Of a stretch of 64,000 nucleotides of DNA, positions 22,097-63,638 are shown one piece after another (within the stretch, counting starts at the first letter, position 1; every line of letters starts with the position of its first letter). Below the pieces are notes generated by a model. That model made no database searches. It had not been told where the DNA came from and saw only the letters and a program-made list of their open reading frames with translations. Origin of the DNA: a virus; IMG/VR virus record IMGVR_UViG_3300030090_007211, positions 1 to 64,000 of that record, one strand, 5' to 3'. The translations under genes and the position numbers were made by a program.

Positions 22097-22903
22097 TTAA
22101 TCTTCATCATAGATCATGTCAAATGACATATTCTCTATCTTACTTTTTACTTTTTCTATTACTCCCAACAATATATTTTCTATGGACTCAGGAGTTAGTG
22201 GTATAGGAATATTAATATCGAAATTATCCATAGGTAATTCTATTTTACCCCCACCATCACCAACTGTAGCACTCACATCTACATTAACATGTGTATTAGT
22301 TTTAGGGTGGGCAGTTTCCTTCTTATATGAACTTTCTTGAGGATATTCTTTAAATTTCACATGAACCATTATTGTTCCATTTCTTCTAACACCATAAGGT
22401 AAATCATATCTATCCCAATAATTATTATCAAGTGTTATATATAAATTAAAACCATTATAACCATCCCAAAAAACAACTGGAGAATTAGAAACAAAACTTT
22501 CTTTATTTGTGTCAAACAATCTTTTACTATCATTCCATGTAATATTAAAGTTACCTATAAAATCTTCTCCACGTTCTTCTTTAACGTGTGCAATAATTTT
22601 TTGTAATGCCCTCACAAAAAGATATCCCCTATTTTCCATTTTTCTTATAGGTTCGTATTCCTTAAAAAGTTTATCACCATGCCACCAATAAGTCAATGCC
22701 ATATCAAATGCTACATCATGTGACACACCAAAATGTTCAATTAACCAACCTGCAGCAATCCATCTATCAAAATTATGCATAGGGTCAGAGACACCAAATT
22801 TTTTATGTAATACCTGTAATAGTTTTTTTTCTTGAGGATTAAACTCTGAAGATGCATCTAATAAGGTTGCTTCTAATATGATATCTTTTTTCTTAATTCT
22901 CAT
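22097..22903 (-). CDS. hypothetical late protein with leader MRIKKKDIILE
   Basis: ORF; late motif at 22919-22925. Confidence 0.75.
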   Translation of the reverse strand: MRIKKKDIILEATLLDASSEFNPQEKKLLQVLHKKFGVSDPMHNFDRWIAAGWLIEHFGVSHDVAFDMALTYWWHGDKLFKEYEPIRKMENRGYLFVRALQKIIAHVKEERGEDFIGNFNITWNDSKRLFDTNKESFVSNSPVVFWDGYNGFNLYITLDNNYWDRYDLPYGVRRNGTIMVHVKFKEYPQESSYKKETAHPKTNTHVNVDVSATVGDGGGKIELPMDNFDINIPIPLTPESIENILLGVIEKVKSKIENMSFDMIYDED

Positions 22904-22940
22904 AGGGCTAATTTAATAATAAATATCTTATAAAACAAAA

Positions 22941-22970
22941 AAAAAGGGTAGAAATACATCTACCCTTTTT
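22941..22970 (-). terminator. intrinsic terminator after major capsid gene
   Basis: AAAAAGGGTAGA-N6-TCTACCCTTTTT hairpin with long U tract on the - strand. Confidence 0.9.
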
Positions 22971-22992
22971 AAAATATAATCAAAAATTAAGA

Positions 22993-61021: not shown

Positions 61022-61037
61022 TAATAAATCAAACAAT

Positions 61038-61634
61038 ATGGAAAAATCTAAAATTTATGAACACCCAAAAACAGGTGTTAAATACCTAAATACTTGTGAC
61101 GCAGTTAGAGGAAGTAGTAGTTCAATCGCACAATCAGAGAATAACGATTGTGTAGTTAGAGCTTTTGCTGCTGTAACTGAAGTAGATTATGAGGTAGCAC
61201 ATGATTATGTTAAAAGAGTATTTAAAAGACCACACCGAAAAGGTACACCCAGATTTGGTCCGATTATGTCACAACGTGAAGGATTATACACTTGTGGTAA
61301 GATGAAATATGAAAGGATGACTAATCATGATAAAACTACATATAAAAAACCTGTAAGATATTATTGTTGGGATGATTATAAATACAAATACCACCATGTA
61401 GAATATACTTTAGATAGTAAATACTGTCCCCTAATTACCACTTATGGTAAAACCAGAGCAAGTCAAATGACTGTGGGAACTTTTTTGAAAGAATATAATG
61501 TAGGTAGATATTTAATACATGTCCGTTCACATGCATTTGCAATAGTGGATGGTGTAGTGATGGGAAATCTTGCCGATGCTCGTCAGTTAAAATGTAGAAT
61601 AATAGATGCTTATAAATTTAGAAATGATGAGTGA
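61038..61634 (+). CDS. hypothetical protein with possible Cys/His catalytic pair
   Basis: NDCVVRA...HAFAIVDG. Confidence 0.65.
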   Translation: MEKSKIYEHPKTGVKYLNTCDAVRGSSSSIAQSENNDCVVRAFAAVTEVDYEVAHDYVKRVFKRPHRKGTPRFGPIMSQREGLYTCGKMKYERMTNHDKTTYKKPVRYYCWDDYKYKYHHVEYTLDSKYCPLITTYGKTRASQMTVGTFLKEYNVGRYLIHVRSHAFAIVDGVVMGNLADARQLKCRIIDAYKFRNDE

Positions 61635-61869
61635 TATATTAGTACCAATAATATTTTTAATGATTCTTACCTTCGTATTTTGGATGGGGTGGGCAATTGG
61701 AAAAAATCAGTATCATCATAATAAAATAAAAAAAGAAACTCCTAAATCTTTGGAGGAATTAGAAAATGAGTTGGAGGGTGCTTTAGAGATTGAAGATTAT
61801 GAGACTGCCATTAAGATAAATAAAATCATTCATAAAATTCATCTTAAAAATAAGAAAAAATCTACTTAG
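61624..61869 (+). CDS. membrane-anchored UVR (UvrB/UvrC-motif) protein
   Basis: N-terminal TM; LEELENELEGALEIEDYETAIKINKII. Confidence 0.75.
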   Translation: MMSDILVPIIFLMILTFVFWMGWAIGKNQYHHNKIKKETPKSLEELENELEGALEIEDYETAIKINKIIHKIHLKNKKKST

Positions 61870-63638
61870 AATTTTTGTCCATGATAATTTTCTAAGGAAT
61901 TTATTAGATCCTGATGATACGTTTTAAAATTTTCTTTTGACCATCCTTCAGTATATTTGTCCTGATAGGATATATTATTTTCATTACGATATAATTCTAC
62001 ATCATCCCCAACTCTATCATAACCCATAAAATTAATCATTGCAATATAATCCTCTAAATTTCTTAGGTTATAATCTTTGTCTACATATGATTCCCAATCT
62101 TCTTTATTTATTTGTAAACTAGGAGTGTATTCCAAATCCCAATCACCAATAATTACGGGGTTTAAAGAATTTAATCTTCTCTCTTTTAATATATGATATA
62201 AAATATTATTATATAATTCTAACATTTCTTCTTCTCTCAACCCATACATCGCCCCGTAGAAATTTTTAAGTTTTTTATATAACCAATCAGATCTTAATTC
62301 ATTATTTAATCCATTTTTTCTCACCATCAAAGGGTAGAATTTATTTCCATACTCTCCTTTAAATGTATCATAAGCTGGGTGAGATATCTCCTTAAAATAA
62401 TAATGGTTTTCATCTTCATCTATTGTGTCTACAACTCTTTGGGTAACTTTATCTATAAAGGTAATTTTTTTAGATTCCCCCAATACCCAAGTTTCCTTAT
62501 AATCATCCCAATCTTCATCTTCTTGAAATTCTATTACTTTTTCAATAATTACATCACTCAGTATATCTGAAATAATAGGTGTAGTAATATCTTCCTCTCC
62601 GGCCGATAGATCATGTTTACTTAAATACCATAAAACCATAGAAGGAACAGAACTTTTTATAACCTCTATACTTTCTCTACTCAACCCAGATTCCCCATAA
62701 TAGTATATAATTTTAGGTTTGTCTATAGTTAAACCATAATCCGACACCAAATCAAATACTATTTCATTTAAAGTTAATTCAACCCTTTTTAAGATATCTT
62801 TAACTACTCTATTAATAAATCCATTTCTATGATATTCTCTATCTTGATTTTTTCTTATTTTGGATTCATTTAACCCCAGAGTGTCCAGACTATCATATTG
62901 AACAAATCCTTTTTCTACGCCCTCCGCGTATATATCTTTAATTAATTTACGAGCAATTGGGTCAACCATAGGGTCATAATTCCCAAAACTGATTTTTTTC
63001 CCAATACCCATTGTTTGAAATAAGTGGTACGCAATAAATCTTTTTAACTCACCTAAAACATAATACGTATCAAATTTACCCACATTACTATGGAAAGGAT
63101 CATAATAAATCTGGGGTTGTGCCATATTAAAATAAGGAAAATGTAACTCAATAGTTTCATCAGTGAGAATTAAATTATTTTTAATTTCGTTATAAACTTT
63201 ATCCACTAGTTTATTAATACTTTTATGTTCTCTCAATACAATTGGTGCATCCGGAGCGTTTTCCCCTTTAAGGTATTTGTTATAAAGTTTAGGTATGAAA
63301 AATCTAGAAAGTATTTGTATTATATCCTCCAAATTAAAATATCCGAATTTATACTCAAACCATTTAAAATAATCTGGTATTAATTGCTGTACTATTTGTT
63401 GAGTGAGATTAATTAAAGGTTGGTAACTTTTTCTCGCTTTTTCTAATTCTTTTAAGGTTATCTCAAAACTAAGAAATATCTCATCATCATGTGTCTTTAT
63501 TCTATCTATCACAAAATACCAAAGACCCTCATCTTCTAAATCAGCCTCTGGTTCAAAAACATCCATTTTTTTTAACATATCATCTGCTACCTTTTCGTAG
63601 AATGAATAAGATGTATTATGTTCAGTTAAAGATTTCAT
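61866..63638 (-). CDS. multi-module late protein starting MKSLTEH
   Basis: Start revised using late motif 63645-63651; four diverged modules each opening with LxE. Confidence 0.75.
   Translation of the reverse strand: MKSLTEHNTSYSFYEKVADDMLKKMDVFEPEADLEDEGLWYFVIDRIKTHDDEIFLSFEITLKELEKARKSYQPLINLTQQIVQQLIPDYFKWFEYKFGYFNLEDIIQILSRFFIPKLYNKYLKGENAPDAPIVLREHKSINKLVDKVYNEIKNNLILTDETIELHFPYFNMAQPQIYYDPFHSNVGKFDTYYVLGELKRFIAYHLFQTMGIGKKISFGNYDPMVDPIARKLIKDIYAEGVEKGFVQYDSLDTLGLNESKIRKNQDREYHRNGFINRVVKDILKRVELTLNEIVFDLVSDYGLTIDKPKIIYYYGESGLSRESIEVIKSSVPSMVLWYLSKHDLSAGEEDITTPIISDILSDVIIEKVIEFQEDEDWDDYKETWVLGESKKITFIDKVTQRVVDTIDEDENHYYFKEISHPAYDTFKGEYGNKFYPLMVRKNGLNNELRSDWLYKKLKNFYGAMYGLREEEMLELYNNILYHILKERRLNSLNPVIIGDWDLEYTPSLQINKEDWESYVDKDYNLRNLEDYIAMINFMGYDRVGDDVELYRNENNISYQDKYTEGWSKENFKTYHQDLINSLENYHGQKF

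What the first reader, a model, noticed from the sequence alone, without database searches (positions are those of the whole stretch)
22097..63638. About 20 unrelated late proteins share cleavable N-terminal leaders: a putative large capsid-cargo targeting system
Seen: three leader types on otherwise unrelated proteins. Type A: MKIKLTESQHRRVMME (33529), MKIKLTESQYKRIVNE (35002), MKIKLTEEQYKKIIKE (35252), MKIKLTENQLRRIIKE (36084), KVKIYESEIKR (38926), MKINRLKEQD (42219), VIRLTESEM..IVNE (52194), MKYIVTESQFKVLIKE (54125), MKILLTEEQFNKLLNE (55245), MKIKLKESQLKRVLKE (56804), IRLTEQD (60353). Type B: MKLTFKHIIKE (34784), MRKLIKNILKEE (58568), MKYIIKNILREE (59399), MKNIIRKILKEE (60973), MRIKKKDIILE (22903), MKINEILLE (57100), MKSLTE (63638). 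Type C: R[MI]xxLM followed by [LI]xE (40964, 49911, 52023). All lie behind the late motif or in its operons; the metabolic and glycosylation genes lack these leaders. Known: T4 internal proteins carry a 10-aa capsid-targeting sequence that gp21 removes after [ILV]-x-E, and a gp21-like protease is at 26496-27188. Inference: this is a portable packaging tag loading a much larger and more varied cargo than T4's internal proteins (nucleotidyltransferase, SleB hydrolase, OmpA-like, LRR, DUF192, zincin) into the head for maturation and possible ejection into the host.
Basis: partly seen in the sequence, partly recalled or inferred. Interest (0 to 1): 0.93.

Follow-up and report, generated by a model that had tools for sequence, protein, structure and literature searches.

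The report
Shared N-terminal leaders on phage proteins
An uncultivated giant T4-like phage puts the same short N-terminal peptide on dozens of unrelated proteins; it is probably an address tag that loads them into the capsid and is then cut off by the head protease, as in T4 but on a far larger scale, though no experiment has shown this.

Summary
The window is the first 64 kb of a 152-kb fragment (about 46% complete) of a roughly 330-kb, 29%-GC T4-like phage. It has a gp20 portal, a gp23 capsid protein and an apparently active S77 (gp21-type) prohead protease.

A 16-residue leader, MKIKLTESQ-[YFL]-x-[KR]-[ILV]-[ILV]-x-E, starts 13 proteins on the contig and never occurs internally. Selection acts on the peptide, because Ser8 uses both AGY and TCN codons. 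The bodies behind the leader are unrelated to each other. Two further leader types (IIRKILKEE, GKLKRQLIEEANKRLL) hold up in leave-one-out tests.

The leader occurs in 83 IMG/VR contigs (a codon-shuffled control gave 0) and 112 protein clusters worldwide. It occurs in no deposited phage genome.

The T4-style reading (capsid targeting, then cleavage at LTE↓S and/or I-x-E↓) fits every test I could run. These include conserved [LI]-x-E↓[AS] sites in the capsid, core and protease proteins. No proteomic or biochemical evidence exists, so confidence is about 0.55. This is a new, greatly expanded variant of a known mechanism.

Other windows of this same genome were flagged for the same theme. I saw no note from other genomes.

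The parts
26496..27188 (-). S77 (T4 gp21-type) prohead serine protease, the presumed processing enzyme
   Evidence: Pfam PF03420, E 1.3e-24. It is 35% identical to T4 gp21, with GEADHP and GVSSRG aligned to the catalytic His85 and Ser140 that are mutated in PDB 5JBL. The N-terminal [LM]-I-E is conserved in G015 and G024.
22993..24720 (-). gp23-type major capsid protein with a candidate maturation site L-L-N-E|A at residues 57-60 (nt 24541-24552)
   Evidence: Pfam PF07068, E 3.6e-73. The site aligns with the region of T4 gp23 FLTE|A. L-[LI]-[NT]-E|[AS] is invariant in 19 clade members, whose MCPs are 56-82% identical to the window's.
24760..26385 (-). Scaffold-position protein (between protease and MCP, as T4 gp22), very acidic; proposed docking partner of the basic leader
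   Evidence: It occupies the gp22 position by synteny. D+E is 27% and [LI]-x-E density is in the 91st percentile of the proteome. The N-terminus ..SIIEE/ALLE|A is conserved. No Pfam or PHROG match.
28035..28811 (-). Core-position protein (between portal and protease, as T4 gp67/gp68)
   Evidence: L-x-E|[SA] at residues 15-17 is kept in G015 and G024 at about 38% overall identity. [LI]-x-E density is in the 89th percentile.
28852..30801 (-). gp20-type portal protein
   Evidence: Pfam PF07230, E 9.1e-80.
30855..32651 (-). Large terminase subunit; five leader genes lie directly upstream on the same strand
   Evidence: Pfam Terminase_6N and TerL_ATPase; gene order.
22097..22903 (-). Gene downstream of the MCP (the position of T4 gp24) with N-terminal M-x-IKKK-x-[IV]-[IL]-L-E|[AS]; not a member of a leader family
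   Evidence: The site is conserved in 8 relatives at 39-59% identity. Compare T4 gp24 MAKINELLRE|S.
32693..33529 (-). Type A leader protein (278 aa, body unknown)
   Evidence: Profile hit of 34.7 bits at the start codon. No Pfam or PHROG match.
34781..35002 (-). Type A leader protein (73 aa)
   Evidence: 38.0 bits at the start codon.
34992..35252 (-). Type A leader protein (86 aa); the true start is the ATG at 35252, not 35354
   Evidence: 34.4 bits. The start follows the stop of the upstream gene.
35257..36084 (-). Type A leader protein with a DUF5824 body
   Evidence: 29.3 bits. Pfam PF19141, E 4e-14. Many orthologues keep the leader.
52500..54125 (-). Type A leader protein (541 aa); the LRR hint is sub-threshold
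   Evidence: 31.7 bits. LRR_4 E 0.021, below the cut-off.
54427..55245 (-). Type A leader protein with a SleB-type cell-wall hydrolase domain at residues 138-240
   Evidence: 32.2 bits. Pfam PF07486, E 4.9e-10. The domain is annotated 'structural protein' or 'cell wall hydrolase' in roseophage records.
56256..56804 (-). Type A leader protein (182 aa, helical-bundle body); the one folded here
   Evidence: 29.5 bits. AF2 shows the leader detached at pLDDT 52-60 and the body at 85-95. No fold match.
38306..38926 (-). Weaker type A-like leader
   Evidence: Joins the type A cluster in the unbiased comparison but is not a profile hit.
41428..42219 (-). Weaker type A-like leader on a possible nucleotidyltransferase
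   Evidence: Cluster member. Pfam NTP_transf_2, Polbeta and SidM_N at E 3e-4 to 3e-3, all below their cut-offs. DrrA similarity is not significant.
52033..52194 (-). 53-aa ORF: a type A-like leader at residue 8 followed by a short basic tail
   Evidence: Translation. Not a profile hit.
60234..60353 (-). 39-aa ORF: a type A-like leader at residue 8 plus a basic tail
   Evidence: Translation.
57489..58568 (-). Type B leader protein (359 aa)
   Evidence: Leave-one-out rank 1, but marginal: 9.3 bits against 7.3 for background. Peptidase_M78 hint at E 0.045 only.
58905..59399 (-). Type B leader protein with a DUF4314 body
   Evidence: Leave-one-out 16.1 bits against 8.1 for background. Pfam PF14192, E 3e-9.
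60449..60973 (-). Type B leader protein (174 aa)
   Evidence: Leave-one-out 16.0 bits against 8.3.
33534..34784 (-). Weak type B-like start (MKLTFKHIIKE)
   Evidence: Not recovered by the type B profile. It sits in the run of leader genes upstream of TerL.
48040..49911 (-). Type C start (..LTLTEELKRMRGLM..)
   Evidence: Its first 36 residues are 56% identical to those of 65290-66750. R[MI]xxLM is at residue 13.
50650..52023 (-). Type C motif at residue 10
   Evidence: R[MI]xxLM positional test. Not recovered by the leave-one-out profile.
39327..40964 (-). Type C motif at residue 18
   Evidence: R[MI]xxLM positional test. Not recovered by the leave-one-out profile.
61866..63638 (-). 590-aa protein starting MKSLTE|H, with further L-x-E|[SH] sites at residues 137, 258 and 388, each followed by a similar helix start; probably a multi-unit chain cut at protease-type junctions
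   Evidence: Sequence and site spacing. BLAST found no internal repeats, so the unit homology is seen by eye only.

Best explanation
The leaders are capsid-targeting propeptides of the T4 type.

Proposed mechanism:
1. Late in infection the leader-bearing proteins are made together with the head proteins.
2. The short, net-basic leader consists of an extended MKIK-L segment and an amphipathic helix ESQ-x-[KR][KR]-[ILV][ILV]-x-E. It binds the acidic scaffolding core of the prohead, so the attached protein is enclosed when the gp23-type shell closes.
3. The S77 prohead protease then cuts after Glu at [LI]-T-E|S (residue 7) and/or [ILV]-x-E (residues 15-17). This frees the cargo inside the head.
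4. From there at least some cargo, such as the SleB-type wall hydrolase, is delivered to the host with the DNA.

Shown here:
- The leaders exist, are strictly N-terminal, are selected at the peptide level, and sit on unrelated bodies.
- They are a clade-wide trait of roughly 320-350-kb T4-like phages with an S77 protease.
- They are structurally detached from the body in the one protein modelled.
- The phage's own head proteins carry conserved [LI]-x-E|[AS] sites.

Inferred, not shown: binding to the scaffold, encapsidation, cleavage and the exact site, and ejection.
For: (1) T4-type head module with an apparently active S77 protease.

(2) The leader is strictly N-terminal: 13 of 13 strong hits and none internal in 141,373 six-frame residues. 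N-terminal pairs outnumber internal pairs 75 to 2.

(3) It is portable. About 15 unrelated bodies carry it on this contig and about 33 across IMG/VR. Of the 112 clusters among 1.84 billion proteins, the great majority match from residue 1.

(4) Selection is on the peptide. Ser8 uses AGY and TCN codons and the upstream DNA is unrelated.

(5) Positions 10-16 stay conserved even though the search pattern did not constrain them. Information content falls to background at residue 17.

(6) [ILVM]-x-E ends within residues 6-24 in 30 of 31 leader proteins, against 43% of other proteins. The conserved L-T-E|S equals the T4 gp23, IPI and Alt sites read from NC_000866 and the L/I-x-E rule (PMC9026906).

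(7) The MCP, the gp24-position protein, the core-position protein and the protease keep [LI]-x-E|[AS] across the clade.

(8) The scaffold-position protein is 27% D+E and rich in such sites. The leader is net basic.

(9) AF2 places the leader as a low-confidence detached helix before a GGYDD break.

(10) The leader co-occurs with S77. Twenty of 32 long records have the protease, including both that are >=90% complete. So does G033 in a second lineage at 39-46% GC.

(11) Five leader genes sit directly upstream of TerL on the same strand. Fifteen of 31 leader genes carry the TA[TC]TTAT motif that also precedes the protease, the scaffold-position gene, the portal and TerL.

(12) Precedent: T4 IP proteins share only a CTS (PMC3012670), and the first 10 residues of IPIII suffice for capsid targeting (PMC9026906).
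Against: - No virion proteome, N-terminal sequence or isolate exists, and no deposited phage carries the leader.
- [ILVM]-x-E is common by chance, so a cleavage site cannot be proved from sequence.
- About 40% of type A leaders lack Glu at exactly position 16.
- The leader has no significant sequence similarity to the T4 CTS.
- It is longer and far more conserved than a T4 CTS needs to be, which could mean a different binding partner.
- Leader number varies widely within the clade: at least 27 in 152 kb here, 17 in sister genome G002, about 8 in the near-complete G024 and about 1-2 in the complete G015. It is therefore not integral to head assembly.
- The promoter motif is not specific to leader genes.
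- The bodies are not enriched for basic proteins, unlike the T4 IPs.
- In some metagenomic proteins the motif is internal or tandem.
Confidence: 0.55

Rival explanations
1. The leader is an uncleaved docking or assembly tag. The conserved strand-plus-helix binds a common hub other than the prohead core and stays on the mature protein. The hub could be the capsid exterior, the neck or tail, or an intracellular phage complex.
For: The leader is longer and more conserved than a T4 CTS. The ESQ-x-[KR][KR]-hydrophobic helix is more conserved than the terminal Glu. Tandem and internal copies occur (P0013, P0020, P0038, P0070), as expected of a binding module. AF2 shows a free helix available for binding. 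[quoted passage not shown]
Against: The invariant Glu7 within [LI]-T-E|S and the frequent [ILV]-x-E end fit the protease rule in 30 of 31 cases. Internal copies sit at unit starts, where junction cleavage would be expected. The leader co-occurs with the S77 head module. No hub protein has been identified.
Confidence: 0.2
2. The leader is a recognition tag for the phage-encoded ClpC-type AAA+ unfoldase, with or without host ClpP, or for another chaperone. It would control folding, timing or turnover of a set of phage proteins.
For: A ClpC-type gene (Clp_N, two AAA modules, UVR, D2-small) with a VGF ClpP-docking loop lies at 45564-48035, and an Hsp20 gene at 44040-44501. Both sit among the leader genes, and the ClpC gene has the same upstream motif. 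From general knowledge, untested here, Clp unfoldases recognise short terminal peptides.
Against: ClpC is equally conserved (55-57% identity) in G024 and G015, which have very few leaders. No ClpP is found on the contig. Tagging more than 30 of the phage's own proteins for unfolding has no precedent. This reading does not explain the [LI]-x-E pattern or the link to head genes.
Confidence: 0.07
3. The leader has no function of its own. It is either the remnant of one much-duplicated ancestral gene whose bodies diverged beyond recognition, or a conserved 5' cassette that promotes recombinational gene shuffling.
For: BLAST finds leader DNA copies at 81-83% identity over about 40 nt. A hybrid protein, P0043, joins the N-terminal part of one window protein to the body of the next, which shows recombination in this region. 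T4-like genomes do carry paralogue families (PMC5694885).
Against: Synonymous sites are scrambled. Ser8 switches between AGY and TCN codon families while the residue is kept. The leader is conserved across lineages from 29% to 46% GC. The bodies include unrelated known domains: SleB, DUF5824, DUF4314. Information content stops abruptly at residue 17.
Confidence: 0.05
4. The shared start reflects translation-initiation optimisation (A-rich codons after ATG) rather than a protein signal.
For: Codons 2-4 are AAA/ATT/AAA-rich. Many other genes of the phage also start with MK.
Against: Conservation runs through 16 residues, including Glu7, Gln9 and a hydrophobic pair. Synonymous codons vary. The motif also works a few residues in from the start and at internal unit starts.
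Confidence: 0.03

Closest known systems
T4 capsid targeting sequence (CTS) of internal proteins IPI, IPII, IPIII and the gp21-processed propeptides of Alt, gp24, gp22, gp67 and gp68
   Same: The protease family (S77) and head-gene order are the same. In both, a short N-terminal peptide beginning M-K is shared by otherwise unrelated proteins and ends in [LI]-x-E. The [LI]-T-E tripeptide is identical to the T4 gp23, IPI and Alt sites. The literature already describes T-even IPs as diverse proteins with only a conserved CTS (PMC3012670).
   Different: There is no significant sequence similarity to MKTYQEFIAE. The leader is 16 residues with two candidate sites, not 10. It is net basic. At least three robust leader classes exist. 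With the same clustering method, T4 gives only the IPII/IPIII and Alt pairs, while this contig gives more than 27 proteins on about 25 unrelated bodies of up to 623 aa. The leader is also used in tandem and at unit starts of longer chains.
phiKZ / SPN3US-type jumbo phage head proteins processed by their prohead protease
   Same: They are giant phages whose heads hold about 50 proteins, many of them ejected. The prohead protease removes N-terminal propeptides after Glu, and the propeptides are thought to target proteins to the prohead (PMC5694885, PMC10052503).
   Different: Their cleavage motif is A/S/G-x-E, not L/I-x-E. Only 8 proteins are processed in SPN3US. I found no common leader sequence across unrelated cargo in the passages I read; identical N-termini are reported only for the paralogues gp53 and gp54. 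They are not close relatives of this T4-core lineage.
Phage P1 Dar system (DarB N-terminal packaging signal)
   Same: An N-terminal signal of fewer than 30 residues suffices to load a large protein or a reporter into the capsid for delivery to the host (PMC9024508).
   Different: P1 Dar proteins share no consensus N-terminal sequence. I saw no evidence that the signal is cleaved. The head and protease families differ.
Encapsulin cargo-loading peptides
   Same: In concept, a short peptide on unrelated cargo proteins directs them into an HK97-fold shell. This rests on general knowledge and was not tested here.
   Different: Those peptides are usually C-terminal and not cleaved, and no virus or DNA is involved. 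This is a functional analogy only.

Membership tests
T4-type CTS / gp21-processed internal head proteins | The phage encodes an S77 (gp21-type) prohead protease with catalytic His and Ser | tested here: met
   PF03420, E 1.3e-24. His and Ser align with T4 gp21 H85 and S140, the two positions altered in the 5JBL chain.
T4-type CTS / gp21-processed internal head proteins | T4-type head module: gp20 portal, core genes, protease, scaffold, gp23 MCP in that order | tested here: met
   Pfam hits and gene order, compared with the T4 map. The scaffold and core genes are assigned by position only.
T4-type CTS / gp21-processed internal head proteins | A short N-terminal peptide shared by proteins that are otherwise unrelated | tested here: met
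T4-type CTS / gp21-processed internal head proteins | The leader ends in the gp21 recognition motif L/I-x-E | tested here: met
   30 of 31 leader proteins against a 33-43% background. L-T-E|S is invariant or nearly so. The motif is common, so this is permissive, not proof.
T4-type CTS / gp21-processed internal head proteins | Sequence homology of the leader to the T4 CTS (MKTYQEFIAE and relatives) | tested here: not met
   The T4 N-termini read share only format (M-K, hydrophobics, [LI]-x-E). The leader segment found nothing in 50,697 phage records, which include T4. Among the 112 profile hits, none has a T4 CTS-like N-terminus.
T4-type CTS / gp21-processed internal head proteins | Proteins are physically inside the mature head with the leader removed, and are ejected on infection | not testable with these tools
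Sec-type signal peptides | A hydrophobic core of about 10-15 residues after a basic n-region | tested here: not met
   The leader is charged throughout. Genuine signal peptides of this phage and of G024 form separate N-terminal clusters.
phiKZ-like processed head proteins | Cleavage motif A/S/G-x-E and phiKZ-type head genes | tested here: not met
   The candidate sites here are [LI]-x-E. The MCP, portal and protease hit the T4 families. The motif definition is from PMC5694885.

The most novel reading that the evidence does not exclude
The leaders form a sequence-coded, multi-class address system. Classes A, B and D (and perhaps C) would sort dozens of proteins into the prohead at different amounts or places. 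Cleavage at LTE|S would leave the conserved basic helix on the mature protein as a second signal, for example for DNA association or for exit through the tail. The phage would then deliver a large, rapidly exchangeable effector arsenal, and the tag could be reused to load foreign proteins.
Probability: 0.18. Interest if true: 0.85.

Novelty: new variant of a known kind. Interest (0 to 1): 0.64.

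Why it matters
If the reading holds, this clade of uncultivated, roughly 330-kb phages (probably of Bacteroidota) has turned the T4 capsid-targeting trick into a general cargo system with dozens of clients. That would have three consequences:
- It would flag more than 100 'dark matter' protein families in metagenomes as probable virion-delivered proteins, identifiable from a 16-residue tag alone.
- It would offer a natural experiment on how targeting peptides diversify into classes.
- It would provide a defined tag for protein packaging in a non-E. coli phage chassis.

Even without the mechanism, the leader is a clean, previously undescribed sequence signature for annotating these phages.

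Tried and rejected
Searches that found nothing:
- Megablast of 20 kb against deposited phages.
- tblastn of a leader segment and of a conserved leader protein against deposited phages.
- PHROGs on ten head-module and leader-bearing proteins.
- Foldseek of the modelled body against PDB and BFVD gave only generic helical bundles.
- A literature search for the motif strings returned only unrelated papers.

P0038 had no relative in IMG/VR.

Hypotheses tested and not supported:
- Cargo is basic like the T4 IPs: rejected, median pI 5.6 for both leader and non-leader proteins.
- ClpC co-varies with leader number: rejected.
- Type C as a profile family: fails leave-one-out.

Other observations:
- The complete genome G015 turned out to be a distant member with almost no type A leaders.
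- P0001, P0019 and P0087 in the big search are spurious repeat proteins.
- A full T4 genome was not fetched. The positive control used 106 kb that contains all known CTS genes.

Full report
WHAT THE WINDOW IS. The window is the first 64 kb of a 151,931-base IMG/VR record, with a CheckV completeness estimate of 46%. GC content is about 29%. Genes 1-22000 run on the plus strand; most of the rest run on the minus strand. The minus-strand block holds a T4-type head module: large terminase 30855-32651, gp20 portal 28852-30801, S77 prohead protease 26496-27188 and gp23 capsid protein 22993-24720. The nearest deposited phages are distant. By MCP they are an uncultured 484-kb phage at 33% identity, Flavobacterium phage immuto at 41% over part of the protein, and Rhodothermus phage RM378 at 29%. 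The protease is 35% identical to T4 gp21. It keeps the His (GEADHP) and Ser (GVSSRG) that are the two positions altered in the 5JBL crystal construct.

I compared the first 26 residues of every predicted protein with those of every other, and did the same for random internal 26-mers. That gave 75 N-terminal pairs at score >=35, against 2 internal pairs. Clustering returned three groups:
- a type A group on about 15 bodies;
- a 'GKLKRQLIEEANKRLL' group (type D, outside the window) on 5 bodies;
- an 'IIRKILKEE' group (type B) on 4 bodies.
Linked proteins have no BLAST similarity beyond residue 30.

The method has working controls. In G024 its largest cluster is the Sec signal peptides. In T4 it recovers the IPII/IPIII and Alt/alt.-1 pairs and the Seg endonuclease paralogues. 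On the same scale, T4 (172 ORFs) gives 10 N-terminal pairs at >=24 bits and this contig (208 ORFs) gives 78.

Leave-one-out profiles support types A, B and D. Type C fails as a profile. Even so, R[MI]xxLM occurs only four times in the 46,239-residue proteome, each time at residues 10-18. That pattern was chosen after seeing the data.

- 13 as strong: seven type A, three type B, three type C (as a positional motif);
- 5 as plausible: 38926, 42219, 52194, 60353, 34784;
- 3 as unsupported as family members: 22903, 63638, and 57100, which lies on the plus strand.

PEPTIDE OR DNA? The conservation is in the peptide. Ser8 is encoded by AGT, AGC, TCA and TCC. Thr6, Glu7 and Leu5 use several codons each, and the DNA upstream of the start codons is unrelated.

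WHERE DOES THE MODULE END? I scanned IMG/VR with a back-translation of residues 1-9. It found 83 contigs. The same codons in reversed order found none. In the matches, residues 10-16 were not constrained by the pattern, yet they read [YLF]-x-[KR]-[ILV]-[ILV]-x-E. Across 34 bodies that are less than 40% identical to each other (one or two of them false positives), information content falls to background at residue 17. AlphaFold2 was run on the 182-aa protein at 56256-56804 with 13 homologues. It puts residues 1-6 in coil and residues 7-18 in a short helix at pLDDT 52-60. A GGYDD break follows, then a confident helical bundle at pLDDT 85-95. The leader is therefore a detachable module.

HOW WIDESPREAD IS IT? 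A profile search of 1.84 billion representative proteins gave 112 hits at E<=0.001. The great majority match from residue 1, and three are spurious repeat proteins. All ten that I looked up are unnamed metagenomic proteins. No deposited phage genome has the leader and no paper mentions it.

The IMG/VR records that carry it look like fragments of roughly 320-350-kb genomes. Of 32 long records, 20 contain an S77 protease, including both that are at least 90% complete. Their capsid proteins are 56-82% identical to the window's. A second set of contigs at 39-46% GC carries a shorter form, M-K-[LI]-TESQLR-[KR]-I-I, on up to three adjacent ORFs. In G033 these lie about 11 kb from an S77 gene.

Leader number differs strongly between genomes:

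| Genome | Size and completeness | Leaders found |
|---|---|---|
| This contig | 152 kb, 46% | at least 27 strong cases |
| G002 (sister) | 160 kb, 48% | 17 (7 A, 6 B, 4 D) |
| G024 | 324 kb, 97% | about 8 |
| G015 | 353 kb, complete | 1-2 |

Type D is confined to the window's lineage.

LINK TO THE PROTEASE. [quoted passage not shown] I read the T4 substrates directly from NC_000866:
- IPII and IPIII: MKTYQEFIAE|A
- IPI: ..TITE|A
- gp24: MAKINELLRE|S
- Alt: MELITE..
- gp22: MLKEQLIAE|A
- gp23: ..FLTE|A

The type A leader contains [LI]-T-E|S at residues 5-8, and Glu7 is invariant. It usually ends in [ILV]-x-E at residues 14-17.

The phage's own head proteins show the same rule at the positions where T4 is cut:
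- The capsid protein has L-[LI]-[NT]-E|[AS] at residues 57-60, invariant in 19 clade members and followed by a variable stretch.
- The gene after the MCP starts M-x-IKKK-x-[IV]-[IL]-L-E|[AS].
- The core-position protein keeps L-x-E|[SA] at residues 15-17 at 38% overall identity.
- The protease keeps [LM]-I-E near its N-terminus, as T4 gp21 has LIE-9.

The scaffold-position protein is 27% Asp+Glu, and its [LI]-x-E density is in the 91st percentile. The leader is net basic. This suggests, but does not show, an electrostatic and hydrophobic docking.

The 590-aa protein at 61866-63638 starts MKSLTE|H. It has further L-x-E|[SH] sites at residues 137, 258 and 388, each followed by a similar helix start. 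Some metagenomic proteins carry the leader at the start of each repeated unit or in tandem (P0038, P0041, P0013). Both observations fit junction cleavage.

An important caution applies. [ILVM]-x-E alone is present in 33% of internal 19-residue windows and in 43% of non-leader N-termini. The 30 of 31 in leader proteins is an enrichment, not proof.

EXPRESSION AND CONTEXT. TATTTAT is the most enriched 7-mer upstream of leader genes (10-fold). TA[TC]TTAT lies 12-45 nt before 15 of 31 leader genes. It also lies before the protease, the scaffold-position gene, the core-position gene, the portal and TerL. However, it precedes 49 of 199 other genes too, including the first genes of the glycosyltransferase block. 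Five leader genes (36084 down to 33529) lie directly upstream of TerL on the same strand. None of the 27 plus-strand genes at 1-22000 carries a leader, nor do thymidylate synthase, the DNA methylase, Hsp20 or ClpC.

THE CARGO.
- Confirmed: a SleB-type wall hydrolase domain, DUF5824 and DUF4314. DUF192 is confirmed for the plus-strand gene at 57100-57501, whose start is not a family leader.
- Sub-threshold only: nucleotidyltransferase, LRR and an M78-like zincin.
- OmpA-like was not found.
- Most bodies have no Pfam or PHROG match.
- The bodies are no more basic than other proteins.

VERDICT ON MECHANISM. The T4-like reading is the best supported, at about 0.55: the leader binds the prohead core, the cargo is enclosed, and the S77 protease cuts at LTE|S and/or the terminal I-x-E. 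The P1' residues of the clade-conserved head-protein sites are Ala or Ser. That favours LTE|S as at least one true site and would leave the basic helix on the mature protein unless the second site is also cut.

The rivals are:
- an uncleaved docking tag for another hub (0.2);
- a tag for the phage's ClpC-type unfoldase (0.07), weakened because ClpC is equally conserved in leader-poor relatives and no ClpP is on the contig;
- a functionless duplication or recombination remnant (0.05), contradicted;
- a translation-initiation effect (0.03).

COMPARISON AND NOVELTY. The principle is known. [quoted passage not shown] P1 Dar proteins share no consensus.

What is new here:
- the leader sequence itself;
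- its length and its two candidate sites;
- at least three robust classes;
- the scale: more than 27 clients in less than half a genome, and more than 100 protein clusters worldwide;
- its use at unit starts of longer chains.

I file it as a new variant of a known kind. It works like the T4 CTS, but the leader is not homologous to it, and the defining physical features (encapsidation, cleavage) are untested.

Noticed in passing
window 45564-48035 (+) and 44040-44501 (-): The phage encodes a ClpC-type double AAA+ unfoldase (Clp_N, AAA, AAA_lid_9 with UVR, AAA_2, ClpB_D2-small). It has a VGF ClpP-docking loop at residues 685-687. An Hsp20 gene lies nearby. No ClpP is on the contig. ClpC is 55-57% identical in the relatives G024 and G015.
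   Followed up: partly
window 24760-26385 (-), residues about 243-375: The very acidic scaffold-position protein contains three tandem copies of a roughly 45-residue His/Gly/Asp/Lys-rich unit (..GDQSKTRSDY.HYKGTDKGYHGKDGESHGDQGE..). Only its N-terminus and its last roughly 105 residues gave tblastn matches in relatives.
   Followed up: no
window 48040-50657 and contig 65290-67455: A duplicated two-gene module. Each copy has a minus-strand type C leader gene followed by a divergent plus-strand gene for a signal-peptide protein. The two signal-peptide proteins have near-identical N-termini (MYKSN.MKKLIT.LLV..).
   Followed up: no
window 52033-52194 (-) and 60234-60353 (-): Two tiny ORFs (53 and 39 aa) consist of a type A-like leader plus a short, highly basic tail. 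If processed they would yield small basic peptides.
   Followed up: no
window 58565-58918 (-): A staphylococcal-nuclease-like gene (PF00565, E 3.8e-10) without a leader sits between two type B leader genes. It overlaps the next start codon by 4 nt.
   Followed up: no
whole contig; for example 20-25 nt upstream of 27188, 28811, 32651, 36084, 54125, 55245, 56804: The promoter-like motif TA[TC]TTAT peaks 20-29 nt upstream of start codons. It precedes head genes, many leader genes, the ClpC gene and the first genes of the plus-strand glycosyltransferase block.
   Followed up: partly
contig 127833-131825 and 141269-142414 (outside the window): A run of adjacent proteins starts with a shorter, T4-CTS-like M-[MK]-[KI]-F-x-x-I-L-x-E. 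Only two of them link in the clustering. This may be a further leader class.
   Followed up: no
G015 (L093) about 123834-125900 (+): In the distant complete relative, one 691-aa ORF carries the K-[LV]-T-E-S-Q motif three times, at residues 10, 35 and 594.
   Followed up: no
window 42257-43219 (-) and 44587-45534 (-): Thymidylate synthase (PF00303, E 2e-99) and an N6/N4 DNA methylase (PF01555, E 1e-39) are embedded between leader-gene blocks. Both lack leaders.
   Followed up: no
P0043 (metagenomic protein): A hybrid protein joins the leader and first roughly 35 residues of the DUF5824-family protein (as at 35257-36084) to the body of the next gene's product (as at 34992-35252). This is evidence of recombination between neighbouring leader genes.
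   Followed up: no
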